From a virus: a stretch of 64,000 nucleotides of DNA. Location: positions 316,878 to 380,877 of the IMG/VR virus record IMGVR_UViG_3300025030_000039; one strand, written 5' to 3'. A program made the translations under genes and the position numbers. Of this stretch, positions 19,577 through 60,072 are shown piece by piece. A model generated the notes under the pieces. The model worked only from the letters and a program-made list of their open reading frames with translations. It was not told the DNA's origin and made no database searches. Each line of letters starts with the position of its first letter. Position 1 is the first letter of the stretch.

Positions 19577-20410
19577 TTAAAGGTTAATATCTGTTAATTT
19601 AGCAAATCTTATACCCATTTGTCTAGCTTGAGCATAAATTGGATCTGCAAGTGTTTCAAATCCTGGTACTGGAGACATTCCATCTTCAAGAATAATAAAC
19701 TTTGAAGCTAATTGAGGGAATTCCATTGCTTGTTTAAGAGTATTTGCTACACAATGACTAGAAGCTTCTCCTGCAAAATAAATTTCATTATATTTTTCTA
19801 ATGTGTTAATTAGATATTGATTAAGTTGAGTAGCAGGAGCATTTTGAACTGGAATATTTGCTCTAAATGCACCAAAATGTTCACTTAATGGGTGTTCACC
19901 TTTTTGAATAACTTGAAAAAATCTTCCTTGTCTTGCCCAATTTTTAACAGCTGTCATTAATTCATCTACTATAGCAGCTCCTGTTGATCCAACTATACAA
20001 TGTTCAGGCCAAATACAATGTGGAAATTCTTTTTGTCTTTCTAATTCTTCAACATATTTTAAAGATTCATGAGGCATATATCTTGGAGTCCATTCTCCAG
20101 AACGTATTTGTGAAGAACTAATACTTGTAAAATGACCTGGATTATTTCCATCTTTATCTTGCCAATATGATGGATGAGATATATCAATTACTTGATGTGT
20201 ATCTTGAGTTAATCCTATATAATTAATTTGTGATTTATTTCTATCAATAAAATCAACAATTCTTTTTACATCATTTTCGGCACCTTTAACATAAAGAGCA
20301 CCTTGTGGAAAAACAATATCATCTTTTGGATCATTTGTTACTTTAATTCTTCTTTCTGGTAAACAAAAATCATTTTGTATATCAATAAGTAATAATGCAG
20401 ATTTTTTCAT
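19577..20410 (-). CDS. pncA: isochorismatase-family hydrolase, nicotinamidase/pyrazinamidase-like
   Basis: LLLIDIQNDF N-terminal motif, catalytic Cys in HCIVGSTGAAIV, and a second SHCV. GC content is noticeably higher than its neighbours. Confidence 0.55.
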   Translation of the reverse strand: MKKSALLLIDIQNDFCLPERRIKVTNDPKDDIVFPQGALYVKGAENDVKRIVDFIDRNKSQINYIGLTQDTHQVIDISHPSYWQDKDGNNPGHFTSISSSQIRSGEWTPRYMPHESLKYVEELERQKEFPHCIWPEHCIVGSTGAAIVDELMTAVKNWARQGRFFQVIQKGEHPLSEHFGAFRANIPVQNAPATQLNQYLINTLEKYNEIYFAGEASSHCVANTLKQAMEFPQLASKFIILEDGMSPVPGFETLADPIYAQARQMGIRFAKLTDINL

Positions 20411-20445
20411 ATTTAAAAATATTTTAGTTAATATTAATTTTAATG

Positions 20446-20459
20446 TGTAAATATAATAA
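20446..20459 (-). promoter_or_regulatory. recurrent promoter-like motif (plus-strand TGTAAATATAATAA)
   Basis: Copy of the 14-mer about 36 nt upstream (gene sense) of the ATG at 20410. Confidence 0.45.
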
Positions 20460-20479
20460 AAAAGTTATTAATAAAAAAA

Positions 20480-20932
20480 TTATTCAATCCAATAATCATA
20501 TACTTCTTTAGTTACTCTTGCATAAAAACTGGGACGATACCATGTATCATTATTTTTATGCCAAGATGCTATAGTTTCTCCAGCATGTAATGGATCAAAT
20601 ATAATTCCATTTTGTTTATAAATAGTTTGCATAATATTTCCATCTGCATCTAAATATGAAACATACCAATAACTATATTCAGATTTATTATTTTCAAAAT
20701 TATCATTTTGAGTTTTAAGTATAATTAATTCTTCTTTTAATAATTTTAATTCATTTATAACAGATTCTAATTGTTCATATGATACAGCAGATTTATTAGT
20801 GTTATTTTCATCTGCCCAATTACACTCATCTTTTGTAATATTTTGAAATTTTTCATTTTTAACTTTATCATTACAACTTATTAAAAATAAAAAAGGACTT
20901 ATTATAAGTCCTTTTATAAAATACTTTATCAT
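20480..20932 (-). CDS. lipoprotein
   Basis: Signal peptide with lipobox LISC. Confidence 0.45.
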   Translation of the reverse strand: MIKYFIKGLIISPFLFLISCNDKVKNEKFQNITKDECNWADENNTNKSAVSYEQLESVINELKLLKEELIILKTQNDNFENNKSEYSYWYVSYLDADGNIMQTIYKQNGIIFDPLHAGETIASWHKNNDTWYRPSFYARVTKEVYDYWIE

Positions 20933-21384
20933 TTTAATTTATTTATTAAACTTTTAGATTGATTATCGATGTATTTAGTTTTTTGTTTCCAAATATCTAT
21001 ATTTTCATTTAATTTATTTCTTTCTTCTTCGGTAAAATTAATTTGATTATAATCTTTACTTGCTTTAATATAATATTGTACAGGACCATCTTTTATCCAA
21101 ATTTGAACTCCATTTTTATTTATAAAATCATATTGTGTCATTTTCCAATCATCTGTATGTGTTAAAATATCTATACACAAAATATCAATAACTTTTTCAG
21201 GATCAAAATTATTAGTTTTTTCTTTATTAAAAATAAGTCCATCTTTATAATTATCTTGTGTAATATATTCGCCAGGTTTATTATAATCATCTGTTGGTCT
21301 TATATAAAAATCACCTTTCGATGATTCATATCCACATGAAAATAATGTAAATATTATAAATGTAAATAAAATTAGTTTTTTCAT
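20929..21384 (-). CDS. lipoprotein
   Basis: Signal peptide with lipobox LFSCG. Confidence 0.45.
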   Translation of the reverse strand: MKKLILFTFIIFTLFSCGYESSKGDFYIRPTDDYNKPGEYITQDNYKDGLIFNKEKTNNFDPEKVIDILCIDILTHTDDWKMTQYDFINKNGVQIWIKDGPVQYYIKASKDYNQINFTEEERNKLNENIDIWKQKTKYIDNQSKSLINKLK

Positions 21385-21394
21385 ATTTTAAATT

Positions 21395-22234
21395 TTAATT
21401 GTTTGTAAAATCTGTTATTTTTATAGAATTAACTTTAAATCTATATTTTAATTTTCTTAATATATTATTCAAAGTTATTCTAATAGTTTCGCCTGAAACA
21501 TCCAATAATTTTCCTATTTCCCAATATGTTTTGCCTTCTTTACCATTTAATCCATAATAATTAATTATTATAATTTTTTCACGTTCTGATAAAGCATTAA
21601 TAACATTTAATAATAATAATTTGTTATCATTTAATATTAAATTATTATCTACTGGAATATAATTAGTATCAATCAAAGTATCTAATACACATAAATTATC
21701 ACTTGATGTTTCGTCATATAAATATGATGTATGCATAAAATTATATTGATAAAATTTAATATAATCATTTCTATCAATATTTAATAAATCTTCATCAGTT
21801 TTAATAGTTTCTTCAAGTTTTCTAATTTTTAAATAGATACTTGAAGGTATTCTAATATGATTAGAATGATTATGTAATGCGACGTGAATAGTATTTTTAA
21901 TCCACCATACTGCATATGAAATAAATTTAAATCCTCTTGTTGGATCAAACTTTTTAGCAGCAATTATAAGTCCTAAATTACCTTCATTTATTAAATCTTC
22001 TAATGGCATTAAACCTTGATACATTTTTGCTACACTTATAACAAACCTTAAATTATTTAATATTAATTGATCTATAGCATTTTGATCATTTTCCTTTTGA
22101 TATTTTATAACTAAATCAGTTTCATCTTCTATAGATAATGATTTAAATTTTTTAATGTCATTAAAATATCTATTAATATTATCGTTTCTGTCTGTTATAA
22201 CTGATTCTTTGCTTACCTTAAAAACTTTCATCAA
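21395..22234 (-). CDS. RNA polymerase sigma factor (sigma-70 family)
   Basis: Region 2 DLINEGNLGLIIAAKKFDPTRGFKFISYAVWWIKN and a region 4 HTH near the C-terminus (TYWEIGKLLDVSGETIRI). Confidence 0.6.
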   Translation of the reverse strand: MMKVFKVSKESVITDRNDNINRYFNDIKKFKSLSIEDETDLVIKYQKENDQNAIDQLILNNLRFVISVAKMYQGLMPLEDLINEGNLGLIIAAKKFDPTRGFKFISYAVWWIKNTIHVALHNHSNHIRIPSSIYLKIRKLEETIKTDEDLLNIDRNDYIKFYQYNFMHTSYLYDETSSDNLCVLDTLIDTNYIPVDNNLILNDNKLLLLNVINALSEREKIIIINYYGLNGKEGKTYWEIGKLLDVSGETIRITLNNILRKLKYRFKVNSIKITDFTNN

Positions 22235-22557
22235 ATTAAAATTTTACATAATGGAACTTCAACAAATCCTATTTTAACATACTTTATAGGTTTACTTATT
22301 ACATTAGCTTCTAATAAAGCTTCAAGCATGCCTTCATTTTCAGAATAATTTTTTATGAATATTTCATCATCAGCAATATCCTCGTTAGGTAAATTTATAG
22401 TTACAGTTGCTATACATTCTGTACCTAGTTGCATACTATAATTAGGTTCTTTTAATGATTTAGCATTCATTAATTGTAATGCTAATCTTCCATTACTATA
22501 TGATTTTTTAACGATATGACATTCATATTCATTAAAAGTTATAATATCATTTAACAT
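22231..22557 (-). CDS. hypothetical protein
   Basis: ORF only. Confidence 0.35.
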   Translation of the reverse strand: MLNDIITFNEYECHIVKKSYSNGRLALQLMNAKSLKEPNYSMQLGTECIATVTINLPNEDIADDEIFIKNYSENEGMLEALLEANVISKPIKYVKIGFVEVPLCKILI

Positions 22558-22561
22558 TATT

Positions 22562-23662
22562 CTATTTTGTTAAAACATTAATTAAATTTTCTATTTTATT
22601 ATGATACAATTTGTTGTAAAATAAATTACTATCAACAATATTTTTATCAACAATAATAAAAAAAGAATTATTAAATATTACAATTAATTTATAATCTAAA
22701 TTATTTAAAACGGCTTTAAATTTTAAAATATTTTTATTTCTTAATTCTTCATTTTCTGCACCATAAGACCAAGATGATTTTATCTCTATTATATATTTAT
22801 TAACTTTATAATCAGATCTATATTGTTTATTAATATTATAATTAAATCTTGGTCCTCTTTCAACAATGCTAATTAAATTATTATTATACATTAAATCTAA
22901 AAAATATTTTTCATAACTACCTTGATAATATAATAAATCATTAAAATATTTAATAGATGAATTTTTACCAGCTCCATTTTTAAATCCCCGTTCCCATGAA
23001 TCTAATCCATCTAATCCAATTGTACTTTTCGTTTTAATCATTTTTTTTATTCTTAATGATTGAATACTTTCATTATTTATAAATCTATTTTTCATTGTAT
23101 TATTGGATTTTCTAGCATATATAGTAGAAAGTTTTTCATTATTAATAAATGTTGTCATTTTAGTTTTAGCCGATTTTTCAGCTATAATATTATTTAAAGT
23201 TTTACCGTTTTCTAAAATTTTATTTCTTTTAATTTGATTAAAATTATATATATTTACTGCTAAAGATTTACCATTTTCTTGAATAGTATTCATTGCAATA
23301 CTTATTCCTTTTCCAGATAATTGATTAGGAGTTAATCCATCTTTTATTATAAAAGTAGATTTATATTTTTTAATACAGTTTTTTGATCCACAATGTTTTT
23401 TATATCCCCCCTCGAAATTTACATATTTACAGTATTCATTACAATATAGACATAATTTATGTTCTTTAATATTGTTAATTATACAATATATTCTTTCAGA
23501 TAAAGTACAATCTAAAAATAAAAAATTTGTACATATTAAAATATTTTTATATTCAAGTAAATATTTATTATTTATAAACCATGATTTTTTAAGTCTTGAT
23601 CCATTTAAACCTATTTTATTCTTATATAAAATAAAAAGATTATCTTTAATAAATTGTTTCAT
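22562..23662 (-). CDS. homing-endonuclease-like protein (zinc finger, NUMOD-like ENGK repeats, C-terminal PD-(D/E)xK-like domain)
   Basis: ENGKSL/ENGKTL repeats. The C-terminal YKVNKYIIEIKSSWSYG block is paralogous to 32302..33000 and 62131..62949. Confidence 0.45.
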   Translation of the reverse strand: MKQFIKDNLFILYKNKIGLNGSRLKKSWFINNKYLLEYKNILICTNFLFLDCTLSERIYCIINNIKEHKLCLYCNEYCKYVNFEGGYKKHCGSKNCIKKYKSTFIIKDGLTPNQLSGKGISIAMNTIQENGKSLAVNIYNFNQIKRNKILENGKTLNNIIAEKSAKTKMTTFINNEKLSTIYARKSNNTMKNRFINNESIQSLRIKKMIKTKSTIGLDGLDSWERGFKNGAGKNSSIKYFNDLLYYQGSYEKYFLDLMYNNNLISIVERGPRFNYNINKQYRSDYKVNKYIIEIKSSWSYGAENEELRNKNILKFKAVLNNLDYKLIVIFNNSFFIIVDKNIVDSNLFYNKLYHNKIENLINVLTK

Positions 23663-23704: not shown

Positions 23705-24565
23705 TTACAAATTCCTAAATAATACTGGACGTTCTATAATTATAGGTATATGCCGTTTAAATTCAGATTTAATATGTCTATTAATAACTAAATGATCTTT
23801 ATAAATAGATTTTTCTTTATTTACAATATAATCGTAAAGTATTTTATCAGCTTCTTGATAACTAGATGCACCTATTTGTTCTAAATCACTGTTACTAATT
23901 CCTAGCCCATCAGTTGGAACAGCATTAATACATTCTTGAAGAGCTAATTTAACTTTACCTTCTAATTCATTATCAACTATATATTGTGATAATTTATAAA
24001 CTTCAGTTTTCCAAAGCATTTGTATTTGTGCATAATCTCCTTGGTCGCCACAGATCGTCCAAAACCCTAATAAATATTCAGTGTAATTATCAGTTGACAT
24101 TACCATACCTTTATTCTTAGATGCTAAATTATAAAGATAAATCATTCTTAATCTAGCTTTAATATTTCCTAATCTTATTTTTTTACCATTTAATGTATTA
24201 TCAACAATTGGATCAACAATGTCATCAAAGTATTCTATATCATCATAATCTTCAGATAAATCTAAATGGTTAAAATCAGTACAGAAATTTTTACCAATAT
24301 TCATAGATCTATTTATTTCATCTACTTTATTAGTTTTAATTGTTAAACTTCGTCCTATAATAGGAATATTTAATTCATCACATATAGGTTTAGATATTGC
24401 TGCAATTAATGCACTATCAATTCCACCTGAAATTCCTAATACAATTGATTTTAAATTATTGTTTAATAAATATTGTTTTAATTCATTTCTTAAATTTGTA
24501 ATTACTAAATTGCATTCCTCTTTAGTATTAAGTAATGATACTGGATCGTTAGAAATATATTTCAT
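23705..24565 (-). CDS. nadE: NH3-dependent NAD+ synthetase
   Basis: PP-loop IVLGISGGIDSAL (SGGxDS) and NadE-like length. Confidence 0.6.
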   Translation of the reverse strand: MKYISNDPVSLLNTKEECNLVITNLRNELKQYLLNNNLKSIVLGISGGIDSALIAAISKPICDELNIPIIGRSLTIKTNKVDEINRSMNIGKNFCTDFNHLDLSEDYDDIEYFDDIVDPIVDNTLNGKKIRLGNIKARLRMIYLYNLASKNKGMVMSTDNYTEYLLGFWTICGDQGDYAQIQMLWKTEVYKLSQYIVDNELEGKVKLALQECINAVPTDGLGISNSDLEQIGASSYQEADKILYDYIVNKEKSIYKDHLVINRHIKSEFKRHIPIIIERPVLFRNL

Positions 24566-25504: not shown

Positions 25505-25509
25505 TTAAA

Positions 25510-27747: not shown

Positions 27748-28308
27748 TTACATTAATTGGGTAATATATTTAGATGGAACATTATCAGTTAAATAAACAT
27801 CATTTAAAGTTTTATAAAAAACAATATTATCTTTAACCATTGATTTACAATCAATTAATAAAATTACTCCACCATTTTTTTTATCATGTCTAGCTCCGGT
27901 TTCTAAAGCCTTTTGTATGTGTTCTTCTCCATATAAATGAACATGATGTCTTGTCATTTTATTAAGACCTTCTTTTTTAATTTGTGATAATAAACGAAAT
28001 CCTGTTCCATGATACAATTTTGTAGGAGGTATAACCTTTTCAAAATCATTTTTAATATTAATAGAATGACCTTGATTAGCTTTAATCATAGTTTTATTTT
28101 CATTAAAACGAAATCTTTGTTTAGGACATGTTTCTACTATATTAATAATATCATCTACGGTAAAATCTTCTCGCTCACTTGCCTTAGATATAATTTCATC
28201 AACGTTAGCCCATCCATATTCATCTAATTTAAGATCAATAGTTTCAGGTCTATGCCTTAAAACATAAGTTAAAAATTTACTTATTTTATTTTTTTTGTTT
28301 GAATCCAT
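27748..28308 (-). CDS. kptA: RNA 2'-phosphotransferase (Tpt1/KptA family)
   Basis: ISKFLTYVLRHRPE...LDEYGWA, KQRF, IKANQGHSI, KLYHGT, MTRHHVHL: the conserved Tpt1 blocks in order. Confidence 0.65.
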   Translation of the reverse strand: MDSNKKNKISKFLTYVLRHRPETIDLKLDEYGWANVDEIISKASEREDFTVDDIINIVETCPKQRFRFNENKTMIKANQGHSINIKNDFEKVIPPTKLYHGTGFRLLSQIKKEGLNKMTRHHVHLYGEEHIQKALETGARHDKKNGGVILLIDCKSMVKDNIVFYKTLNDVYLTDNVPSKYITQLM

Positions 28309-28550
28309 TATTCCTTTAGTTCTACATAATCTTCAATCGTAACGAATGACCAACTATCTTTACCCCATAAATGAAACTTTTCTAAAGTTTCTAATATACC
28401 TTCAGCTTTTTCTATTGACGTAAATATTCTAGCAGAAGTCATATTTAATTTGTTATTTATTCCATATCTAGTAACAGTATCACTTATTGAAACATGTCTA
28501 AATAATTGTCTATCTGTATCATAACCGATTATAATAAATTTTTTTTCCAT
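28308..28550 (-). CDS. hypothetical protein
   Basis: ORF only. Confidence 0.35.
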   Translation of the reverse strand: MEKKFIIIGYDTDRQLFRHVSISDTVTRYGINNKLNMTSARIFTSIEKAEGILETLEKFHLWGKDSWSFVTIEDYVELKE

Positions 28551-28593
28551 ATAATGAAATATTTTTTATTATATATCGATACACTAAATAGTT

Positions 28594-28791
28594 TCATTTA
28601 TGTAACACAAATACTATATTACCTTTTAGCTCAATCTTTGAATCTTTACTTGCATATGTTGTTGAAACATTAGTAGATCCTGATACATGTTGTGCAATAC
28701 AATGTTTAACATTATATCCTGATTCTAATAATTTATTTAAATCCATAACATCTGTATTTGATTCTGGATTTAAAATATATACTTTTTCCAT
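28594..28791 (-). CDS. hypothetical protein
   Basis: ORF only. Confidence 0.3.
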   Translation of the reverse strand: MEKVYILNPESNTDVMDLNKLLESGYNVKHCIAQHVSGSTNVSTTYASKDSKIELKGNIVFVLHK

Positions 28792-28805
28792 ATTTAAAAT
28801 TTTAG

Positions 28806-28879
28806 TGGACCCTATAGGACTTGAACCTATAACCTCATCGTTATGAGCGATTTGCGCTCACCAATTGCGCCAAAGGTCC
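28806..28879 (-). tRNA. tRNA-Met or tRNA-Ile2 (anticodon CAU)
   Basis: GGACCTT TG GCGCAATTGGTGAGCGC A AATCG CTCATAA CGATG AGGTT ATAGG TTCAAGT CCTAT AGGGTCC A. Confidence 0.75.
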
Positions 28880-28886
28880 GTTTTTA

Positions 28887-29327
28887 TTATTTGTAAAGTT
28901 TTAATTTTCCTGTTATATTATTAATTTCTTCTTCATCAGCTGGTCCTATTGCTACACATGTTTTAGTAGGAACTCCATTAAATATAGTATCACCAGCATC
29001 TGTAATAAGTACTGTAGGAAGTTTAGCATCTTTAGCTTTATAATAAATTAATTCTAATTCTTCTTCAGAATTACATTCTAAAACAATTTTAGTAAATTTT
29101 TCTTCCAACCATTTATCTAATGAAGAATTAATTGCATATGGAATAGTTATAATTTTTTCATTATAAATAAAAGTTGAACCATCCTTAACTTCTTTTCTAA
29201 TTCTAATATCTTTTTCACTTAAAGATAATACAGCACCTAAAGAAGCATGAGATACTTGAGCAGCTAATTTACCAGCCGGCATATTTAAATCTTTTCTTGC
29301 TACTATTACTTGTTTTGCTTTTGACAT
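28887..29327 (-). CDS. pth2: peptidyl-tRNA hydrolase, PTH2 family
   Basis: VIVARKDLNMPAGKLAAQVSHAS N-terminal signature and a C-terminal TCVAIGP block. Confidence 0.65.
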   Translation of the reverse strand: MSKAKQVIVARKDLNMPAGKLAAQVSHASLGAVLSLSEKDIRIRKEVKDGSTFIYNEKIITIPYAINSSLDKWLEEKFTKIVLECNSEEELELIYYKAKDAKLPTVLITDAGDTIFNGVPTKTCVAIGPADEEEINNITGKLKLYK

Positions 29328-29519: not shown

Positions 29520-29940
29520 AGAAATTGAAACCGTTCAAAAATTGAATACTCAAAAGTATTCTACCGTTTATTTGAATAAAAATTCGGCAAAAAAGGTCAT
29601 GATTCCGAGATTAAAGTGCAGAAATACATCCGAATTAGCACTTAACTTGATGAGGTACAAGTTAAACCCATGTGATATAGCTCATTTGCAAAGCTGTACT
29701 GACGTCTTTTCATATGGAAAACCCGTATGAAATACATAGTAACTGACATCTTAAATATTTTATAATCTATATAATTCATAATATCAAAGAACGGTTTCAA
29801 CTTCATCATCGGTATCCCACTAAGTAGGGAAACTTTTTAACTTTTCGACAGTTAACATCGTTTACATGTTTCGCTAGTAACCTACGACACACTGATGCGT
29901 TCAGTAGAGACGCCATTAATTAACCTTAATGGGAAGGTTA
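29520..29940 (-). ncRNA. candidate structured non-coding RNA (about 420 nt, GC-enriched island)
   Basis: Non-coding and clearly more GC-rich than flanks. It is preceded (gene sense) by a promoter motif copy at 29959-29972 and followed by tRNA-Arg. Many complementary segments, for example GAAACCGTTC...GAACGGTTTC. Family not recognised. Confidence 0.35.
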
Positions 29941-29958
29941 TAATAAATTAATATTATG

Positions 29959-29972
29959 TGTAAATATAATAA
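29959..29972 (-). promoter_or_regulatory. recurrent promoter-like motif
   Basis: TGTAAATATAATAA. Confidence 0.45.
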
Positions 29973-30043
29973 TTAAGTTTTACAAATTAAAATATTTATG
30001 ATCTTTTTTCAAAATAATTTTAAATGAAAATTTAATTAAATAT

Positions 30044-30394
30044 TTATAAAAAATGAAAAGGGTTATTATCATTTAAATCATCAGTATAAAGATTTTTATC
30101 ATCAACTTTAACATTTTCTTCAATATTTAAATCCTCTTCTGAAAATTCATCTTCTTTTATATTTTCATCAATATGATATAAACCGATAATACAATCTTCT
30201 CTCTTTCTTCTATATGATTCAAAATAATCAGAATCTACAGGTATACATTTATGAATTATATCTTCAGTTATAAGTGTATAACTTGATTCATCATAAACTA
30301 CACCAGGATCTCCAAAATAATAACCTACTTTACCTTTTTCTTTATATTGCAAAACTCTGGGACCTGTTCTTCCCATTCCATCTGCATCATACAC
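30044..30394 (-). CDS. hypothetical acidic protein; frame stays open about 130 nt upstream to an A7 tract
   Basis: See the frameshift finding. Confidence 0.35.
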   Translation of the reverse strand: MYDADGMGRTGPRVLQYKEKGKVGYYFGDPGVVYDESSYTLITEDIIHKCIPVDSDYFESYRRKREDCIIGLYHIDENIKEDEFSEEDLNIEENVKVDDKNLYTDDLNDNNPFHFL

Positions 30395-30526
30395 ATATAA
30401 AGCATCTTTTATTAAAATATATTCTGCACTTACGAATTTAAATTGAATTTCATTATAAACTTCAGGATAAAATTTCTTTAAATATTCAGATTGAAATTTT
30501 AATTTTTTTCTAATATTTCAGTATGA

Positions 30527-31054
30527 CTACTCATTATATTTTTTATTAAAAAGTTTTGTTGCTATTTTTAAACCTTCATTTTTATAATCAATATCTTTTC
30601 CTGATTTATAAACTCCAAATAGTCTCCATCTTTCATAATTAATCATATAATTTAATCTTTTTTTACTTAGATATTTATATAAAGTATTTAAATTTAAAAT
30701 GTTATTTCTTTTAAAGATTTTAATACATTCTATTTCATTAAAAGTAAATTCAAAATGATCATATATCTTTTTAATAGATTTAACATTAATATTAAAAAAA
30801 TTATTATAAGGTTTTTTATCTTTATTTAATTGAGTTTCCTGATAAATTTTTATTTTTTCTTTATTTTTATCTCTCCATTTCTCTTGATAATTTAAATCAT
30901 GTTCACGTTTATCTTTAATTGTATATCTTAAAGCTCTTTGTTCATGACCACATTTTATACATTTACATTGTATACTTGATTTATATTTATACATTGAAAA
31001 AGTAGTAAAACCATGCACTTTACATTCTTTTTGTATTTCTCCTATTTTCATCAT
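30527..31054 (-). CDS. zinc-finger protein (homing-endonuclease-associated?)
   Basis: Start placed at MMKIGEIQ because the ORF-track start at 31144 overlaps tRNA-Asp. Contains CKCIKCGH. Confidence 0.35.
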   Translation of the reverse strand: MMKIGEIQKECKVHGFTTFSMYKYKSSIQCKCIKCGHEQRALRYTIKDKREHDLNYQEKWRDKNKEKIKIYQETQLNKDKKPYNNFFNINVKSIKKIYDHFEFTFNEIECIKIFKRNNILNLNTLYKYLSKKRLNYMINYERWRLFGVYKSGKDIDYKNEGLKIATKLFNKKYNE

Positions 31055-32301: not shown

Positions 32302-33000
32302 TTAAATATTATATTCCTTTTTAAATTCTATTTTTTGTTTTCTATTTTGAAAATCTTTTAATATATTTAAATTTATTAAATCTTCATCTATTAAAATTTT
32401 TAATTTACAGGGAAAATTATTCCATTTTGCTAAATCTTTTAATGTAACGTATCCTTTAATTTCAATATAAATTTTTTCATCTAATAAAAAGAAATCAGGT
32501 CTATATCTTCGAGTTTTTCCTTCATATTCATATTCAAATGTAATATAAGGCCTTTCCCATTTAATATTATTTTCATCTAAATATTTAGCATAAAGATATT
32601 CCCATTTTACTTGTAATTTTATTCCATTATATTCATAATAATTTTTTTTAGAAAAAGATGTATGCCATTCTCCATTTTTTATTCTTTCATTTATTTTATC
32701 AGATATTTTTTGTTTATGTTCTTTTGTTAATTCTGTATTTTTAGAATGATGTTTAAATAATCCTTCTTTTAAATGTTTCGTTAATGTTTCACCACATCTT
32801 TTAACTCTTTCATCAGTATCTTTAGTTAAACCTTTATTCCAAATTATTCTACCTTTTTTATATCCGGCATTAGGATCATGATTTCTACCTTCTCCATGCA
32901 TTTTCCAAATATGTGATCCTATTCCATAAATTGAATATTCTTTATTACATATTAAACATTTACATTTTCCGTTATCTAATTTTACATATTGTTTATCCAT
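32302..33000 (-). CDS. homing-endonuclease-like protein: C2H2 zinc finger plus PD-(D/E)xK-like C-terminal domain
   Basis: CKCLICNKEYSIYGIGSHIWKMH, then WEYLYAKYLDENNIKWER...YRPDFFLLDEKIYIEIKGY (D...E.K). Confidence 0.45.
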   Translation of the reverse strand: MDKQYVKLDNGKCKCLICNKEYSIYGIGSHIWKMHGEGRNHDPNAGYKKGRIIWNKGLTKDTDERVKRCGETLTKHLKEGLFKHHSKNTELTKEHKQKISDKINERIKNGEWHTSFSKKNYYEYNGIKLQVKWEYLYAKYLDENNIKWERPYITFEYEYEGKTRRYRPDFFLLDEKIYIEIKGYVTLKDLAKWNNFPCKLKILIDEDLINLNILKDFQNRKQKIEFKKEYNI

Positions 33001-34655: not shown

Positions 34656-35012
34656 TTATTTTAAATTTATTAAACTGTATGTAGTATTATCAGAATTTAA
34701 AAAATATCCACTATTAAAAAGTTTAAGAATATTTTCTTTTTTAATATCTATTATAATATTATGATCATTATATTTATACATTTTATAATAAATAGAATCT
34801 ATATCATATATTAAAAATAGCTGTCTATCATTTTTAATTAAACATAAAAATGTTCCAACTGGAATATTATACTGTGTATAAGTTACTAGTTCATTATTTT
34901 CATTAAACGATTCACCTAAAAATCTTATATTAGATTTATGTAATTCTTTAGCAGTTGGACCGCAAGATATAAATAAAACACCAACTAAAAGTATTAAAAT
35001 ATATTTATTCAT
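34656..35012 (-). CDS. lipoprotein
   Basis: Likely start at MNKYILILLVGVLFISCGPT (lipobox). The ORF-track N-terminal extension to 35120 overlaps 35005..35271. Confidence 0.4.
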   Translation of the reverse strand: MNKYILILLVGVLFISCGPTAKELHKSNIRFLGESFNENNELVTYTQYNIPVGTFLCLIKNDRQLFLIYDIDSIYYKMYKYNDHNIIIDIKKENILKLFNSGYFLNSDNTTYSLINLK

Positions 35013-35267
35013 AATTAAAATATCTAATGTTTCGTTTATAATGAATTTTTTTAACCATTTTTGATAATAAAAGATATTGTATAATATTTTTATAATTTTT
35101 ATAATGAGCATTACCATCAAACATATAATGACTATTATTTAAGCATTTTTTATTTTTGTCTATAATTCGTTTTACATCTCTCTGTATTATACCTTCAGGA
35201 TTTTTTTTAATCTCCTCATACACAATCATAGCTGCTTCAAAATTTTCTTTTCTTAATTTTGGTATCA

Positions 35268-35624
35268 TCAATTAAGTTTTTCTATTTCTCGATTAATCAT
35301 CATTCTTGATACTGGTTCATATGCTCTTAATAAAACATAATGAAATATTCCAGATATACAAATTATAGCAAAACATACTATTATATAATCAATTATACTA
35401 ATAAATGTAATTGGTAAAATATTAACCTTATCATAAATAAATATTGATGAAATAATTAATATCCAATGACTTAAACACCATGGACAGTGAATTAATTCTT
35501 CTATTTTAGGATGTATTTTAGACAATAATTCTCTTAACCATTTAAAAATACTAGTAAAAGTAATTGTAAAAGATATTGCTGATAAACAACATGCAATAAT
35601 AAAAATATTTGATAATGTATCCAT
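35268..35624 (-). CDS. membrane protein
   Basis: Four hydrophobic helices. Confidence 0.35.
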   Translation of the reverse strand: MDTLSNIFIIACCLSAISFTITFTSIFKWLRELLSKIHPKIEELIHCPWCLSHWILIISSIFIYDKVNILPITFISIIDYIIVCFAIICISGIFHYVLLRAYEPVSRMMINREIEKLN

Positions 35625-35625
35625 A

Positions 35626-35865
35626 TTAACGTAAAGTTTTATCTCCTCTTTCTATACTTTTTATATAATCTCCGCTTTGTAATAAAGAATCATAAGGAAC
35701 AATTCTTTCAACTTTAGTTTCATAACAGCCACAACCACAACAAGATTTATATAAAAGAACTACAGTACGATGTGTTTTTTGTTCTTTAATTTTATCATAT
35801 TCATCAAGAACAGATGATGAATTGTTTTTACCCTTTTGATCTTTTTTTACTTGTAATTGTTCCAT
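35626..35865 (-). CDS. small Cys-rich protein
   Basis: CCGCGCY. Confidence 0.3.
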   Translation of the reverse strand: MEQLQVKKDQKGKNNSSSVLDEYDKIKEQKTHRTVVLLYKSCCGCGCYETKVERIVPYDSLLQSGDYIKSIERGDKTLR

Positions 35866-35866
35866 A

Positions 35867-36997
35867 TTAAAAATTATGTTGATTTATTAATGTATTTACA
35901 GCTTCTTTTATATCACTAAGTATTATTCCTTTAGTTGTAGTATCGTCTTTAATATATCTAGATAATGAATTTTTAGTTGCAAATTTTACAATTGATTGAG
36001 CCATAGCACCATCTATTTTATCTTTTAATTTAGATTCAAAAATAAGTTTACTACCAGTAGTAGATAATTTATTAATTGTATCTATACATAAAACTTTATT
36101 TAAATGAATATTTAAAATATCGGAAAAATCACTTTCAATTGGTCGTTTTATATTTAATCTTAAATCTATTCTACCATCTCTTAATATTGCGGGATCAAGT
36201 GATCTTTCTAAATTAGTTGATAAAACAATTAACGGTTTTATTTTATTTAATCCATCCATTTCAGCTAAAAATGAAGGAACAACAGAAAAACTTTTATATA
36301 AACTATCACTTCTATGACTTAATAAAGCTTCAGCTTCATCTATAAAAATTACACCTTGTTTACCGGTTTTTTCTGTATATTTTCTAGATCTTTTAAAAAT
36401 ATTAGATACAATTTTTTCAGATTCACCTACATATTTATCTAAAATATCTCCACCTTTAATTGATATAAATGCATCTTTATTAACGTTTTTTTCTTTTAAA
36501 ATTGTATATCCTATAGCTTTTGCTATTAATGTTTTTCCGCAGCCTGAAGGTCCATATAATAAAATACCATTAAGTGGTTCTAATCCAAACTTTTTAACTA
36601 AATCAGGATGTTTTAATGGAATTTCAATTGCATCTCTAACAAGTTGTATTTGATCTTTTAATCCACCTATTTCTTCCCATTTAATAAGAGAAATATTTTC
36701 TTCTGGAATAAATTTATTAAGAGATTCTGGAATAACTTCAACAATAGTATCTTTAAGTATCATTACTTCGGTACCTTCTTTAATAGATAATTTTTGTTTA
36801 GAATCTATAGATTCTAAAATTGCTGGAATAATACTTTCGCCTGATCCAGTATCTACCCTATAAAAATTTATACCTCCTACTATATAAGATTTAGAAGTTA
36901 TAGTTCCAATACTTCTCGATTCTTTTTTTAAAGTATCAAGTATTTCTTCATACTTTTTAATTTTTTCTTCTAATTTCTTTATAACTTCAACACTCAT
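35867..36997 (-). CDS. classic AAA ATPase, proteasomal-ATPase (PAN/ARC/Mpa)-like with N-terminal coiled coil
   Basis: WEEIGGL, Walker A LLYGPSGCGKT, Walker B VIFIDEAEAL, SRH with LDPAILRDGRID. N-terminal heptad coiled coil. Confidence 0.55.
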   Translation of the reverse strand: MSVEVIKKLEEKIKKYEEILDTLKKESRSIGTITSKSYIVGGINFYRVDTGSGESIIPAILESIDSKQKLSIKEGTEVMILKDTIVEVIPESLNKFIPEENISLIKWEEIGGLKDQIQLVRDAIEIPLKHPDLVKKFGLEPLNGILLYGPSGCGKTLIAKAIGYTILKEKNVNKDAFISIKGGDILDKYVGESEKIVSNIFKRSRKYTEKTGKQGVIFIDEAEALLSHRSDSLYKSFSVVPSFLAEMDGLNKIKPLIVLSTNLERSLDPAILRDGRIDLRLNIKRPIESDFSDILNIHLNKVLCIDTINKLSTTGSKLIFESKLKDKIDGAMAQSIVKFATKNSLSRYIKDDTTTKGIILSDIKEAVNTLINQHNF

Positions 36998-56571: not shown

Positions 56572-56577
56572 CTTTGT

Positions 56578-56754: not shown

Positions 56755-56782
56755 ACAACCATGTAAATATAATTAAAAAGAT

Positions 56783-56810
56783 CGAAATATAAAAGGCTTA
56801 TAAGCCTTTT
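56783..56810 (-). terminator. possible terminator overlapping the stop of 56798..57232
   Basis: AAAAGGCTTA TAAGCCTTTT with a moderate T-rich tail. Confidence 0.35.
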
Positions 56811-57232: not shown

Positions 57233-57346
57233 TGTTTTAAATTTTTTATTTTAAGTTGTTTTATTTTTGTTGGGTTTGTAATTAATTTAAAACAAATACG
57301 TAGGACCTCTAATTGTAATTTTAATCTATTTCATAACTTTAATTTT

Positions 57347-57688: not shown

Positions 57689-57722
57689 AACAAAATTTAT
57701 TTAATTATTATATGCAAATATA

Positions 57723-57736
57723 ATAAAAATGTTTCA
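57723..57736 (-). promoter_or_regulatory. recurrent promoter-like motif (TGCAAATATAATAA variant)
   Basis: About 17 nt upstream (gene sense) of the ATG AAG TAG start at 57688. Confidence 0.45.
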
Positions 57737-57744
57737 AATAAAAA

Positions 57745-58167
57745 TTATTTTTTTAATTTATTTTTAACTATTATTTTTAATAATTCATAATTTAAATCAT
57801 TTGGATGTAATTCCATACAATTTTTCATAAAAAAACCAAAATATGATTGTTCTCCATATATATGTTTATTAAATTCTTCATTATTATTTTTAATAACGTT
57901 ATTTACTAAATTAATAGTTTCTTCTTCTGATAAATATTTTGGAAGATATTTTTCAATTATACAAATTTCATTTATTGCTTGTATGGTTCCTATTGTTTCT
58001 AGATTACTTATTAATGTTCTTAGAATAAAGTTAACTTCATAATCTTTTAATATTTTATTAAATTGTCTATGAAACTCTCCAATAATTACTTTTAATATAC
58101 TAATATATTCCTTATCTTTATTTTTGATAGCTATTTTTAAGTCATTTTTAATTTTATTTTGAAGCAT
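57745..58167 (-). CDS. hypothetical protein
   Basis: ORF only. Confidence 0.35.
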   Translation of the reverse strand: MLQNKIKNDLKIAIKNKDKEYISILKVIIGEFHRQFNKILKDYEVNFILRTLISNLETIGTIQAINEICIIEKYLPKYLSEEETINLVNNVIKNNNEEFNKHIYGEQSYFGFFMKNCMELHPNDLNYELLKIIVKNKLKK

Positions 58168-58193
58168 AATGAATGATCTTATTTATTTATTTA

Positions 58194-58436
58194 TTAAAAA
58201 TAAAGTATCTGTCTTTTATTATTTTGTGGAAATATTTCCAATAATTTTTTTCTTTTATATTCTAATTCTAAAATATGATATCTTTCTAGTATTTTATCAT
58301 ATGCTTCTTTATCATTGTATTTTTTAAAAAATAATTCTAAATACTTTTTAGAATTATTTAATTGTGATAATGTTTTACAATTATTAACAGTACTAAAACA
58401 TTTTTCGTATAATTTTACACTAATTAACAATTTCAT
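58194..58436 (-). CDS. hypothetical protein
   Basis: ORF only. Confidence 0.35.
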   Translation of the reverse strand: MKLLISVKLYEKCFSTVNNCKTLSQLNNSKKYLELFFKKYNDKEAYDKILERYHILELEYKRKKLLEIFPQNNKRQILYF

Positions 58437-58644
58437 TATTTATTATTTTAATAATTTTAGAAGAAACTAATTTATATTTATTCATAATTTCTTTAATTCT
58501 TTTTTTGGAATATCATAATGATCTGAGTGAAACTAACATTTTTTTACATTTAATTTCATTGTCATTAAATGTAAATTAAGCACGGAATACGGAATACAAA
58601 TTAAATGCCTGCTATTATCACAGATAAATTCCATCTTTAATTAT

Positions 58645-59187
58645 TTAAGATATATCAATAATTAAATCTAATATTTCTTCTGCAGAATCTTCTATACTTA
58701 AAATATCAGTTCTTAATTCAAGATCTGGATCTTCTGGAGCTTCATATGGAGAATCTATTCCTGTAAAATCTTTTATTTTACCAGCTCTAACTTTTTTATA
58801 AAGTCCTTTAACATCTCTTCTTTCACATAATTCAATTGGAGCATTAACATAAATTTCTATAAAATTTTCTAAACCTATAATTTCTTTAGCTAAATCTCTA
58901 ATTTCCTTAGTAGGACTAATAAAAGAAACTATTACATTTCTATTATTTAATATAAATAATTTTGCAATTTCGGCAACTCTTCTAATATTTTCTTTTCTAT
59001 CATTATTAGTAAATCCTAAATCTTTATTTATACCAAGTCTTAAATCATCTCCATCAAGAATTATAATACCTGAATATTCTTTTTTTACCTGCTTTGCTAT
59101 TGTTGTTTTACCAGCTCCAGATAATCCAGTTAACCAATATACTTTTTTCATTGTTTTTAATTTATATATCGTATACTTCAGCGACAC
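58645..59187 (-). CDS. cysC: adenylylsulfate (APS) kinase
   Basis: YWLTGLSGAGKTTIA P-loop, LDGDDLR, DLGF..DR.ENIRRV.EIAKL, VIVSFISP: the CysC signature. Confidence 0.6.
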   Translation of the reverse strand: MSLKYTIYKLKTMKKVYWLTGLSGAGKTTIAKQVKKEYSGIIILDGDDLRLGINKDLGFTNNDRKENIRRVAEIAKLFILNNRNVIVSFISPTKEIRDLAKEIIGLENFIEIYVNAPIELCERRDVKGLYKKVRAGKIKDFTGIDSPYEAPEDPDLELRTDILSIEDSAEEILDLIIDIS

Positions 59188-59596
59188 CGTGATCTACTAT
59201 TACAACCATAGTTTCTGTTAAATTTTCTTTTAATTTTAAAGCAGCTTCTTTATCAATAATATCAAGAACTTTTTGCATGTATTCTCTTAATGCTAAACCT
59301 CTTGCAAATGGAATTTCACCTCTATCTCTAATATCTTGCCAATTAAAATTAGGCATTAATGCATTAGCTATATCTAATCCAAATGGAGCATCAACATTAA
59401 TAATAACTATAACTACATCATTATTTGTTAAATGTCTTTCATTAATTCTATTTCTAAAATGTACAATTCTATCTATATTGAGATGAAATGTATTTATACA
59501 ATTACTTTTTTCAACTGCTTTAATTACAGAAACTGCTTCAGGATCAATTAAAACAATTTCGCCATTAATATTTTCTATTCGTGGTAAATTTTCCAT
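59162..59596 (-). CDS. hypothetical protein
   Basis: ORF only; overlaps cysC by 26 nt. Confidence 0.35.
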   Translation of the reverse strand: MENLPRIENINGEIVLIDPEAVSVIKAVEKSNCINTFHLNIDRIVHFRNRINERHLTNNDVVIVIINVDAPFGLDIANALMPNFNWQDIRDRGEIPFARGLALREYMQKVLDIIDKEAALKLKENLTETMVVIVDHGVAEVYDI

Positions 59597-60072
59597 TATT
59601 TTATAAAATCATTACGTAATTGTGTTAATACTTTTCCTAATAAATTTTGACCTGGCCATTTATTTTCTGGAATATTTACAGCATCTTCTTCTAATAATCC
59701 AATACCCCATATTTTATCATAAGGACTTGCTTCTACTAAAGTTCTAGTTTCAGTAGCAATTAATTGTTTTAATAGGTTTGGATTTTGTTCAAATTTTTCT
59801 TTATTAACATCATACATAAAATTATATGATATTTTACTCCATTTATCAGTATCAAATCCTTTAACTTTTCTTCCTAATTTTTTATTTAAACTCGGATTAG
59901 GTTCATTTAAAATTTCATTTGCTGTTTTAGAATCATTAAAATAATTTGCTTTTTCCCACATAAAAGCTTGTTCACTATTTGAAAATTCTAAACTTTTATA
60001 ATTAAATTTAACAGAATACCAATTGGAATATATTCCATTCCAAAAAAATACATACTTATCAGTTGTTATCAT
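59596..60072 (-). CDS. NADAR (YbiA/DUF1768) domain protein
   Basis: FFWNGIYSNW...F.SEQAFMWEKA..F.D...LGRKVKGFD...W...KF.QN..L...LL.T....L.E.S..D.IWGIG follows the NADAR conserved blocks. Confidence 0.55.
   Translation of the reverse strand: MITTDKYVFFWNGIYSNWYSVKFNYKSLEFSNSEQAFMWEKANYFNDSKTANEILNEPNPSLNKKLGRKVKGFDTDKWSKISYNFMYDVNKEKFEQNPNLLKQLIATETRTLVEASPYDKIWGIGLLEEDAVNIPENKWPGQNLLGKVLTQLRNDFIK

What the first reader, a model, noticed from the sequence alone, without database searches (positions are those of the whole stretch)
19577..60072. Scattered NAD+ / ADP-ribose toolkit: nicotinamidase, NAD synthetase, Tpt1, macro domain, NADAR
The window encodes PncA-like nicotinamidase (19577..20410) and NadE NAD synthetase (23705..24565), two steps of the Preiss-Handler salvage route. 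It also encodes Tpt1/KptA (27748..28308), which uses NAD+ to remove RNA 2'-phosphates, and a macro domain protein (44578..45156). A NADAR domain protein (59596..60072) is present; this family is implicated in reversing ADP-ribosylation of nucleobases. Phage-encoded NAD+ replenishment and ADP-ribose-removing enzymes are known counter-measures to NAD-depleting and ADP-ribosylating immunity. Having five such functions in 40 kb is notable. PncB/NadD-type steps may lie outside the window.
Basis: partly seen in the sequence, partly recalled or inferred. Interest (0 to 1): 0.55.

Follow-up and report, generated by a model that had tools for sequence, protein, structure and literature searches.

The report
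Huge phage rebuilds its own NAD+
This 462 kb uncultured phage encodes all four enzymes that turn nicotinamide back into NAD+, plus several enzymes that use NAD+ or clean up ADP-ribose; gene sets like this were already described by computer analysis in other giant phages, so this is a further, slightly unusual example.

Summary
All five genes are real, intact, minus-strand ORFs at the stated coordinates, and every family call holds. The window is part of LR756500.1, an unannotated 462 kb uncultured phage. PncB lies 8 kb outside the window and a NadM-type NMN/NaMN adenylyltransferase fused to Nudix lies 5.6 kb outside it. PncA, PncB, NadM and NadE therefore form a complete nicotinamide-to-NAD+ route. 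NAMPT, NadD, NadR, PnuC and Prs homologs are absent. The same stretch also encodes a PARP-like transferase and an ADP-ribosylglycohydrolase, and a split NAD-dependent DNA ligase lies elsewhere.

The "toolkit" is not one system. One wing is NAD+ resynthesis, and its genes co-occur and cluster tightly in other viral contigs. Tpt1, a Macro-2 (YMR087W-like) macrodomain, a Pnkp-like kinase-phosphatase and a cREC domain fit an RNA end-healing wing, though no RNA ligase was found. The NADAR is YbiA-family type and its role is open.

Jumbo phages with complete salvage or Preiss-Handler pathways plus NAD consumers were described in 2024, and the viral NAD/ADP-ribose network was surveyed in 2022. This is a new member of a known kind. 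A counter-defence role is plausible but untested.

The parts
19577..20410 (-). Nicotinamidase (PncA function), long Bacteroidota-type, 277 aa. Step 1: nicotinamide to nicotinate.
   Evidence: Pfam PF00857 28.7 bits. Family invariants D10, K170, C220 and D70, H72, H137. Family profile hits PDB nicotinamidases first. AF2 pLDDT 95.6, with the ten best Foldseek hits all nicotinamidases. Syntenic homolog on a related 80.7 kb phage contig.
23705..24565 (-). NH3-dependent NAD synthetase (NadE), 286 aa, single synthetase domain. Amidates NaAD to NAD+ (or NaMN to NMN).
   Evidence: PF02540 121 bits and TIGR00552 119.6 bits against a cutoff of 63.65. PDB NadE hits such as 3p52 at 1.8e-18. PP-loop SGGIDS at 46-51. 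No glutaminase domain.
27748..28308 (-). RNA 2'-phosphotransferase Tpt1/KptA, 186 aa; consumes NAD+.
   Evidence: PF01885 161.9 bits. Best PDB hit is Runella slithyformis Tpt1 7kw8 at 8e-40. Catalytic tetrad R18, H19, R65, R120. Flanked by tRNA genes and PTH2.
44578..45156 (-). Macrodomain of the Macro-2 (YMR087W-like) clade, 192 aa; predicted ADP-ribose-1''-phosphate phosphatase.
   Evidence: PF01661 29.8 bits and PF14519 24.4 bits. 6,246 homologs carrying PF14519+PF01661 labels. Family profile's best PDB hit is 1njr (YMR087W) at 1.7e-9 over the full length. Clade function from PMC6397177.
59596..60072 (-). NADAR domain protein, 158 aa, YbiA-family type (Glu114).
   Evidence: PF08719 153.4 bits and TIGR02464 150.3 bits against a cutoff of 73.7. 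PDB 8bau (Phytophthora NADAR) 68.6 bits versus E. coli YbiA 27 bits, with E34, E114, D119 and W122 conserved.
60173..61129 (-). Pnkp-like protein: N-terminal P-loop kinase plus C-terminal HAD/PNK 3'-phosphatase, 318 aa; candidate RNA end-healing enzyme.
   Evidence: PF08645 PNK3P 37.4 bits. TIGR01663 PNK-3'Pase 48 bits and HAD-IIIA 63.6 bits. T4 PseT phmmer E=0.0014. Same domain order as T4 Pnkp, read from the sequence.
60095..60165 (-). tRNA-like gene lying between the Pnkp-like gene and NADAR.
   Evidence: Rfam RF00005 46.6 bits. Not called by ARAGORN.
48688..49725 (-). ARPP-1 domain protein, 345 aa; a possible further member of the ADP-ribose theme. Function unknown.
   Evidence: PF20208 86.2 bits. 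The family is described as associated with ADP-ribosylglycohydrolase systems in PMC9503650.

Best explanation
The window belongs to a 462 kb phage, LR756500.1. Its closest bacterial gene relatives are from Bacteroidota, so its host is probably a member of that phylum. The phage carries two or three separate NAD-centred gene sets, not one system.

(A) A complete four-enzyme route from nicotinamide to NAD+. The nicotinamidase (window 19577-20410) deamidates nicotinamide. PncB (record 44896-46083, outside the window) joins nicotinate to host-made PRPP to give NaMN. The NadM-type adenylyltransferase of the NadM-Nudix protein (record 47604-48515) adenylates it. NadE (window 23705-24565) amidates with ammonia. 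The last two steps could also run in the Francisella order, NaMN to NMN to NAD+. The fused Nudix domain probably splits ADP-ribose or NAD(H) into AMP and ribose-5-phosphate. Together these enzymes would keep NAD+ available in the infected cell. That serves the phage's own NAD consumers (split LigA, PARP-like ART, Tpt1) and would also refill NAD+ after host NADase defences.

(B) An NAD-dependent RNA end-processing set embedded in the tRNA array. Tpt1 removes RNA 2'-phosphates onto NAD+. A cREC domain and the Macro-2 macrodomain then process the ADP-ribose cyclic phosphate and 1''-phosphate by-products. A Pnkp-like kinase-phosphatase heals RNA ends.

(C) ADP-ribosylation writer and erasers (PARP-like, ADP-ribosylglycohydrolase, NADAR) with unknown targets.

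Shown here: gene presence, family membership, catalytic residues, pathway completeness, and clustering of the set (A) genes in other viruses. Inferred: substrate preferences, reaction order, timing, and the biological purpose.
For: Identity of the genome: (100% match to LR756500.1). In-window families. Nicotinamidase. PncB: phmmer against E. coli PncB 3e-76; PF04095 197 bits plus NAPRTase_N 113 bits; TIGR01514 420 bits against a cutoff of 270. NadM-Nudix: NCBIfam bifunctional NMNAT/Nudix 1.5e-8 and PDB 2qjt/2qjo; 1,345 homologs, many named bifunctional NMN adenylyltransferase/nudix hydrolase; the six best Foldseek matches are Francisella and Synechocystis NadM over both domains at 1e-16; motifs TEGH and ISATATRR. 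No alternative routes: no NAMPT, NadD, NadR, PnuC, Prs or NadA hit in the 462 kb. Module reality: 9 of 13 PncB phage records also have NadE; 12 of 21 IMG/VR PncB loci have NadE within 10 kb; compact Nudix-NadE-PncA-PncB blocks occur in L046 and L041-L043. NAD consumers and ADP-ribose enzymes: PARP 74 bits with H295/Y329/E406, ADP-ribosylglycohydrolase 119 bits, cREC_REC 83 bits; LigA domains. Macro-2 assignment. NadM can pair with either a conventional NAD synthetase or an NMN synthetase: PMC3376133. Precedents: NAD-jumbo phages PMC11662467; the KptA-2H/cREC-Macro-NADAR RNA-repair wing PMC9503650; NARP1-3.
Against: The four biosynthetic genes are spread over about 34 kb and interleaved with unrelated genes, so co-regulation is not shown. 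The NMNAT domain scores far below the equivalog cutoffs (34 bits against 409), and its first motif is atypical (TEGH with a two-residue insertion). The AF2 model has pTM 0.51. For set (B), no RNA ligase (T4 Rnl1/Rnl2, RtcB) and no 2H phosphoesterase was found, so the pathway that would generate 2'-phosphate junctions is missing or unrecognised. The macro gene's neighbours vary between phages. Only record 28-118 kb was scanned exhaustively with Pfam; the remaining 372 kb was searched only with specific probes. No expression or biochemical data exist. PRPP must come from the host.
Confidence: 0.72

Rival explanations
1. Dedicated counter-defence. The whole set exists to defeat NAD-depleting (SIR2, TIR, SEFIR) and ADP-ribosylating (DarT-type) immunity. 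The four-enzyme route rebuilds NAD+ from the nicotinamide released by NADases, Nudix removes ADP-ribose, and macro, NADAR and ARH strip ADP-ribose from phage DNA, RNA or proteins.
For: Three other phage NAD+ reconstitution pathways were shown experimentally to overcome NADase defences. Phage NADARs from several clades reverse DarT1. The closest solved NADAR (8bau) hydrolyses guanine-ADP-ribose, and its catalytic residues are conserved here. The route starts from nicotinamide, the NADase product, and includes a Nudix domain whose solved NadM relatives are ADP-ribose pyrophosphatases.
Against: Nothing in the sequence ties these genes to a defence system. The macrodomain is Macro-2 type, reported to lack de-MARylating activity, and is unlike DarG. 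The NADAR passes the YbiA/riboflavin-type model, a group regarded as housekeeping. The phage also encodes CoaD, CoaE, APS kinase, dCMP deaminase, IF3, PTH2, tRNAs and a tmRNA, which points to general metabolic autonomy. A four-step route costing several ATP is a slower answer to acute NAD+ collapse than NARP1 or NARP2.
Confidence: 0.4
2. Auxiliary metabolism only. NAD+ salvage simply sustains a long infection and feeds the phage's own NAD-dependent enzymes (LigA for replication, PARP-like ART, Tpt1), with no role in immunity evasion.
For: The phage encodes a LigA-type NAD-dependent ligase and no ATP-dependent DNA ligase homolog, so replication would depend on NAD+. It carries other cofactor and translation genes. 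Li et al. propose this use for NAD-jumbo phages.
Against: It does not explain the ADP-ribose-removing enzymes. It is not exclusive of counter-defence. LigA is split by an inserted ORF and its activity is unverified.
Confidence: 0.35
3. Thematic coincidence. The five genes are unrelated accessory genes picked up independently in a gene-rich, tRNA-rich region of a huge genome, and grouping them as a toolkit is an artefact of shared keywords.
For: The genes are scattered over 40 kb with dozens of unrelated genes between them. Macro neighbourhoods differ between phages. Bacterial homologs of the nicotinamidase have no Pfam-identifiable NAD-pathway gene within the 6 kb flanks shown, where several neighbours lack any Pfam hit. 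Such domains are individually common in jumbo phages.
Against: The biosynthetic genes form a complete pathway with no gap and no redundancy. They co-occur far above chance in phage records. They are physically clustered in other viral contigs.
Confidence: 0.2

Closest known systems
NAD-jumbo phages (Li et al. 2024, Microbiome, PMC11662467)
   Same: These are jumbo phages, many predicted to infect Bacteroidota, that encode every gene of a salvage or Preiss-Handler NAD+ pathway together with NAD-consuming enzymes such as LigA and PARP. pncA, pncB and nadE are all mentioned there.
   Different: LR756500.1 is not discussed in the sections of that paper read here. The example cluster there is pncB-nadD-nadE, tightly linked and starting from nicotinate. 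Here the adenylyltransferase is NadM-Nudix, the route starts from nicotinamide through a long Bacteroidota-type nicotinamidase, and the genes are dispersed over about 34 kb.
NARP2 / Vibrio phage KVP40 NadV + NatV (NadM-Nudix) salvage
   Same: A phage-encoded NadM-type NMNAT fused to Nudix makes the dinucleotide, and nicotinamide is the starting point.
   Different: NARP2 has two steps through NMN, using NAMPT/NadV. This genome has no NAMPT homolog and instead uses nicotinamidase + PncB + NadE, the deamidated route. [quoted passage not shown]
Bacterial pyridine nucleotide cycle / Preiss-Handler pathway (PncA-PncB-NadD-NadE) and the Francisella variant (PncB-NadE*-NadM)
   Same: The chemistry is the same. 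PncB passes its equivalog cutoff and NadE passes TIGR00552. The NadM + NadE combination has bacterial precedents in Acinetobacter and Francisella.
   Different: Here the pathway is encoded by a virus, and NadD is replaced by NadM-Nudix. Whether NadE acts on NaAD or on NaMN cannot be read from the sequence.
KptA(Tpt1)-2H/cREC-Macro-NADAR RNA-repair wing of jumbo phages (Iyer et al. 2022, PMC9503650)
   Same: Tpt1 with an intact catalytic tetrad, a cREC_REC domain, an Appr-1''-p-type macrodomain, a NADAR and a Pnkp-like end-healing enzyme all occur in a tRNA-rich genome.
   Different: No RNA ligase and no 2H phosphoesterase could be found, and the genes are not adjacent to one another.
AdfN phage NADARs and DarG antitoxins (anti-DarT)
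   Same: NADAR fold with conserved catalytic residues; the closest solved relative removes ADP-ribose from guanine.
   Different: It has Glu at the diagnostic position, not the His of AdfN-T4 or the Asp of DarT1-linked NADARs. It lacks the N-terminal extension of DarT1-linked NADARs. It passes the YbiA/ribofla_fusion model. The macrodomain is not DarG-like.

Membership tests
Preiss-Handler / pyridine nucleotide cycle salvage (nicotinamide to NAD+) | Nicotinamidase with a Cys-Lys-Asp triad and a metal site | tested here: met
   D10/K170/C220 and D70/H72/H137 are invariant in the family. Profile and fold searches both put nicotinamidases first.
Preiss-Handler / pyridine nucleotide cycle salvage (nicotinamide to NAD+) | Nicotinate phosphoribosyltransferase (PncB) | tested here: met
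   Record 44896-46083: TIGR01514 420 bits against a cutoff of 270; E. coli PncB 3e-76. It lies outside the window.
Preiss-Handler / pyridine nucleotide cycle salvage (nicotinamide to NAD+) | Adenylyltransferase that accepts NaMN | tested here: inconclusive
   A NadM-type NMNAT domain is present and no NadD exists. Some NadM enzymes use both NMN and NaMN, but substrate preference cannot be tested with these tools.
Preiss-Handler / pyridine nucleotide cycle salvage (nicotinamide to NAD+) | NAD synthetase with a PP-loop | tested here: met
   PF02540 121 bits; TIGR00552 above its cutoff; SGGIDS motif.
NARP2 (NadV/NAMPT + NMNAT) | Nicotinamide phosphoribosyltransferase (NadV/NAMPT) | tested here: not met
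   A NAMPT probe that hits 2,020 phage records finds nothing in the 462 kb by phmmer --max or tblastn.
NARP1 (Adps + Namat) | PRPS-like ADP-ribose pyrophosphokinase and NAMPT-like Namat | tested here: not met
   E. coli Prs and the NAMPT probe give no hit. A very divergent Adps could escape a single-sequence probe.
NARP3 (PnuC + NadR) | PnuC transporter and NadR-like kinase/adenylyltransferase | tested here: not met
   E. coli PnuC and NadR give no significant hit.
Tpt1-dependent RNA repair/splicing pathway | Tpt1 with the Arg-His-Arg-Arg tetrad | tested here: met
   R18, H19, R65 and R120 align with Runella Tpt1.
Tpt1-dependent RNA repair/splicing pathway | An RNA ligase that leaves a 2'-phosphate junction, and a cyclic phosphodiesterase | tested here: inconclusive
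   No homolog of T4 Rnl1/Rnl2, RtcB, RtcA or ThpR, and no 2H motif pair. A cREC_REC domain is present. Most of the genome was not profile-scanned.
Tpt1-dependent RNA repair/splicing pathway | ADP-ribose-1''-phosphate phosphatase macrodomain | tested here: met
   Membership of the Macro-2 clade rests on a profile match to YMR087W. The enzyme activity itself is not testable here.
DarG-type macrodomain antitoxin | Match to the DarG macrodomain family | tested here: not met
   NF048014 DarG scores 16.5 bits against a cutoff of 250. The closest clade is Macro-2.
Anti-DarT NADAR (AdfN / DarG1-like) | NADAR fold with catalytic Glu/Lys and an acidic or His residue at the E125-equivalent position | tested here: inconclusive
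   The fold and E34, E114, D119 and W122 are conserved. The diagnostic residue is Glu (YbiA-family type), not His or Asp. Activity on ADP-ribosylated guanine is not testable here.
PARP-like ADP-ribosyltransferase | H-Y-E catalytic triad | tested here: met
   Record 29597-30871: PF00644 74 bits; H295, Y329 and E406 present.

The most novel reading that the evidence does not exclude
This phage runs a deamidated, four-enzyme NAD+ reconstitution pathway (nicotinamidase, PncB, NadM, NadE) that acts as a fourth kind of phage counter-measure to NADase immunity. It may run in the Francisella order, with NadE making NMN. By destroying nicotinamide it may also relieve product inhibition of the phage's own PARP-like and Tpt1 enzymes. 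No such route has been demonstrated experimentally for a virus; NARP1-3 use different chemistry.
Probability: 0.3. Interest if true: 0.6.

Novelty: new member of a known kind. Interest (0 to 1): 0.33.

Why it matters
The finding shows that a huge environmental phage carries a gap-free nicotinamide-to-NAD+ route built from parts of different origin: a Bacteroidota-type nicotinamidase, PncB, NadM-Nudix without its usual NadV partner, and NadE. It also separates the gene set into distinct functional groups. The deamidated route is rare among deposited phages (13 PncB and 27 NadE records against 2,020 with NAMPT) and has never been tested experimentally in a virus. If it restores NAD+ during infection, it would add a fourth chemistry to the known phage NAD+ reconstitution pathways. 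The practical value is a defined four-gene set, plus a Macro-2 and a YbiA-type NADAR, that can be cloned and assayed.

Tried and rejected
1. CoaD as the missing adenylyltransferase. Record 34850-36010 hit NadD and NadR weakly, but it passes the CoaD equivalog (TIGR01510 128.7 bits against 103.3). Rejected.

2. A functional link between the DenV-like glycosylase (45153-45515) and the macro gene, whose ORFs overlap by 4 nt. The adjacency is not conserved in other huge phages. Treated as incidental.

3. NadV/NAMPT, NadD, NadR, PnuC, Prs and NadA elsewhere in the genome. None was found.

4. Paralogs of macro, NADAR, Tpt1, PARP, ARH, nicotinamidase or Nudix. None was found, using single sequences and family HMMs.

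5. An RNA ligase or 2H partner for Tpt1. E. coli RtcB, RtcA and ThpR, T4 Rnl1, Rnl2 and gp30, and motif scans gave only a marginal 14-bit hit of Rnl2 to a 108-aa ORF (window 22231-22557). Unresolved.

6. NAD riboswitches or introns near the genes. Rfam gathering-threshold hits are only tRNAs and the tmRNA.

7. Stop-codon recoding, suggested by the tRNA(CUA). Reading TAG or TGA as sense gives no gain in ORF coverage.

8. Neighbourhood support for the nicotinamidase function in bacteria. The neighbours shown include no Pfam-identifiable NAD-pathway gene, and several have no Pfam hit at all.

9. Deciding the NadE substrate (NaAD or NaMN) from similarity. The PDB ranking is uninformative. Not decidable here.

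10. The depositing paper (Al-Shayeb 2020) has no mention of NAD or ADP-ribose in its main text.

Only record 28-118 kb was scanned ORF by ORF.

Full report
**What the window is.** The 64 kb window is a 100% match to LR756500.1, an unannotated 462,018 bp "uncultured phage" record. Window position 1 corresponds to record position 54150. GC content is about 24% and almost every gene is on the minus strand. The window holds 22 tRNA genes and a tmRNA by ARAGORN, and Rfam confirms these and adds two more tRNA-like hits.

**Observation.** All five ORFs exist at the stated coordinates and every family call holds. NadE scores 121 bits, Tpt1 162 bits and NADAR 153 bits, all strong. The nicotinamidase (28.7 bits, cutoff 27) and the macrodomain (29.8 bits, cutoff 22) were borderline, so I tested them further.

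The nicotinamidase belongs to a tight family of 484 proteins of about 262 aa at 52-63% identity. Where a source names them they come from Bacteroidota, and several are called nicotinamidase. In this family the catalytic triad (D10, K170, C220) and the metal ligands (D70, H72, H137) are invariant. The family profile hits only nicotinamidases at the top of PDB, with yeast Pnc1 at 3e-18. A high-confidence model (pLDDT 95.6) has nicotinamidases as its ten best structural matches.

The macrodomain family has 6,246 members carrying PF14519 and PF01661 labels. Its best PDB match is yeast YMR087W over the full length, at 1.7e-9. YMR087W is the only studied member of the Macro-2 clade. That clade is described as an ADP-ribose-1''-phosphate phosphatase of the tRNA-splicing pathway with no de-MARylating activity (PMC6397177).

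Catalytic motifs are intact in NadE (SGGIDS), in Tpt1 (R18-H19-R65-R120, aligned to Runella Tpt1) and in NADAR (E34, E114, D119, W122).

**The pathway is complete, but only with genes outside the window.** Using E. coli PncB, NadD and NadR as probes against all ORFs of the genome, I found PncB at record 44896-46083 (3e-76). It passes its equivalog cutoff (TIGR01514, 420 bits against 270).

A weak NadD/NadR hit at record 34850-36010 turned out to be CoaD (TIGR01510 above its cutoff). Together with the window's CoaE it covers the last two steps of CoA synthesis, so it is unrelated to NAD.

The real adenylyltransferase is at record 47604-48515, a 303-aa protein. Its N-terminus matches the bifunctional NMNAT/Nudix models (1.5e-8) and the NadM proteins of Francisella and Synechocystis in PDB. 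It keeps a T-x-G-H motif and an ISxTxxR motif. It has 1,345 relatives, many named bifunctional NMN adenylyltransferase/nudix hydrolase. Its model's six best structural matches are those same NadM proteins, aligned over both domains at about 1e-16.

A NAMPT probe that hits 2,020 phage records finds nothing in this genome. Prs, PnuC, NadA, NadD and NadR also find nothing. So the only route encoded is the following:
- nicotinamide to nicotinate (nicotinamidase);
- nicotinate to NaMN (PncB);
- NaMN to NaAD (NadM);
- NaAD to NAD+ (NadE).

The last two steps could equally run in the Francisella order, NaMN to NMN to NAD+. Both NadM/NadE arrangements exist in bacteria (PMC3376133), and sequence cannot decide between them.

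**Is the biosynthetic set a real module?** Yes. In 50,697 phage records PncB occurs in 13 and NadE in 27. Nine of the 13 PncB records also carry NadE, where about 0.007 would be expected by chance. LR756511 (595 kb) carries the same nicotinamidase, PncB and NadE trio.

Among 21 IMG/VR viral loci with a PncB relative, 12 have NadE within 10 kb and four have a PncA. Loci L046 and L041-L043 hold compact Nudix-NadE-PncA-PncB blocks. The PncA in those blocks is the canonical 208-aa type and is only 21-23% identical to the protein here. This phage therefore appears to have filled that step independently with a Bacteroidota-type enzyme.

A related phage contig of 80.7 kb keeps the nicotinamidase in the same gene order as the window.

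**The rest of the "toolkit".** The 26 kb just upstream of the window also encodes:
- a PARP catalytic-domain protein (74 bits, H-Y-E triad intact);
- an ADP-ribosylglycohydrolase (119 bits);
- a cREC_REC "cyclic-phosphate processing" domain.

Inside the window, a Pnkp-like kinase-phosphatase sits next to NADAR with a tRNA-like gene between them, and there is an ARPP-1 protein. Elsewhere in the genome an NAD-dependent DNA ligase is present but split by a 337-aa ORF. No ATP-dependent DNA ligase homolog was found.

Tpt1, a Macro-2 macrodomain, cREC, Pnkp and NADAR are exactly the parts that Iyer et al. 2022 assign to an NAD-dependent RNA-repair wing in jumbo phages. Tpt1 and Pnkp lie among tRNA genes and PTH2. 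However, I found no RNA ligase and no 2H enzyme with E. coli and T4 probes or with motif scans, so this wing is incomplete or partly unrecognised.

The overlap of the macro gene with a DenV-like glycosylase gene is not conserved in other huge phages.

The NADAR is closer to the Phytophthora enzyme that removes ADP-ribose from guanine (68.6 bits) than to E. coli YbiA (27 bits). But it has the YbiA-family Glu at the diagnostic position, not the His of T4-type anti-DarT NADARs, and it passes the riboflavin-type model. Its substrate is open.

**Interpretation.** The evidence supports separate gene sets, not a single system:
- (A) a complete NAD+ resynthesis route;
- (B) NAD-dependent RNA end-processing with clearance of its by-products;
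- (C) an ADP-ribosylation writer and erasers with unknown targets.

Set (A) would keep NAD+ available for the phage's own consumers (LigA, PARP, Tpt1). By analogy with NARP1-3, it could also refill NAD+ after host NADase defences. Which purpose dominates is inference. The phage's many other self-sufficiency genes (CoaD, CoaE, APS kinase, dCMP deaminase, IF3, PTH2, tRNAs, tmRNA) make plain metabolic autonomy a serious alternative.

**Comparison with what is known.** Li et al. 2024 reported that 174 of 668 gut jumbo phages encode complete salvage or Preiss-Handler pathways plus at least 15 kinds of NAD consumers, including PARP and LigA. Predicted hosts of the clade richest in these phages were Bacteroidota. 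Iyer et al. 2022 surveyed the whole NAD/ADP-ribose network in viruses. Neither that survey, the depositing paper (searched for the accession), nor the sections of Li et al. read here mention LR756500.1. The NARP papers do not cover the PncA/PncB/NadE chemistry.

Three details differ from the published picture:
- NadM occurs here without NadV, contrary to the 2022 statement that every NadM phage has NadV.
- NadM replaces NadD in a Preiss-Handler context.
- The genes are dispersed, not clustered.

These are variations within a described class, so I rate the finding as a new member of a known kind, of modest interest. The deamidated route has still not been tested experimentally in any virus.

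**Limits.** Only record 28-118 kb was scanned ORF by ORF against Pfam. The other 372 kb was searched only with specific probes. No expression or biochemical data exist for this uncultured phage.

Noticed in passing
window 7279-63093 (array); tmRNA 40360-40772: A dense translation-related region: 22 tRNAs and a tmRNA (tag GNNAEMRMAA) by ARAGORN, two more tRNA-like Rfam hits (60095-60165 and 54230-54290), plus IF3 (2982-3509) and PTH2 peptidyl-tRNA hydrolase (28887-29327).
   Followed up: partly
window 56503-56571: A tRNA with a CUA (amber-reading) anticodon. Reading TAG or TGA as sense does not increase ORF coverage anywhere in the 462 kb, so there is no sign of bulk stop-codon recoding.
   Followed up: yes
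window 16394-19565: Directly downstream of the nicotinamidase lie a 231-aa protein (vWA-like MIDAS motif by eye, no Pfam hit), a PP2C phosphatase and a Ser/Thr kinase. The same order occurs on a related 80.7 kb phage contig (locus L021). It resembles a vWA-phosphatase-kinase signalling triad.
   Followed up: partly
window 7359-8078 and 58645-59187; LR756500.1 record 34850-36010: Other cofactor genes: CoaE (dephospho-CoA kinase) and CoaD (PPAT, fused to an uncharacterised C-terminal domain) cover the last two steps of CoA synthesis. An APS kinase lies near NADAR.
   Followed up: partly
window 48688-51299: An ARPP-1 domain protein next to a 521-aa protein that has no Pfam or NCBIfam hit (vWA-like C-terminus by eye). 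The ARPP family was described mainly in host ADP-ribosylglycohydrolase-centred systems, so its presence in a phage is curious.
   Followed up: no
LR756500.1 record 356125-359237 (locus L008 13125-16237): The NAD-dependent DNA ligase is split. The adenylation domain and the OB-fold/zinc-finger part are separate ORFs with a 337-aa ORF between them (mobile element, or a genuinely split gene?). No ATP-dependent DNA ligase homolog was found.
   Followed up: partly
LR756500.1 record 38866-39939: A PhoH-like ATPase with a weak intein-splicing-domain hit and a long insertion before the PhoH domain.
   Followed up: no
window 45153-45515: A T4 DenV-like pyrimidine-dimer DNA glycosylase whose stop codon overlaps the macro gene's start by 4 nt. 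The pairing is not conserved in other huge phages.
   Followed up: yes
window 22562-23662, 32302-33000, 62131-62949: Several ORFs share Cys-rich N-termini and a C-terminal 'D...YIEIKG'-type motif (PD-(D/E)XK-like by eye). They may be a family of homing-endonuclease-like genes scattered through the region.
   Followed up: no
LR756501.1 / LR756503.1 record 428734-431429: The 735 kb phage carries a PncB (54% identical) next to a NadE-like gene, although Li et al. 2024 credit that phage only with nadD.
   Followed up: partly
window 52214-53736; LR756500.1 record 28194-29090: A CYTH domain protein next to an R2K-clade ATP-grasp gene. A second R2K ATP-grasp gene lies next to the PARP-like gene.
   Followed up: no
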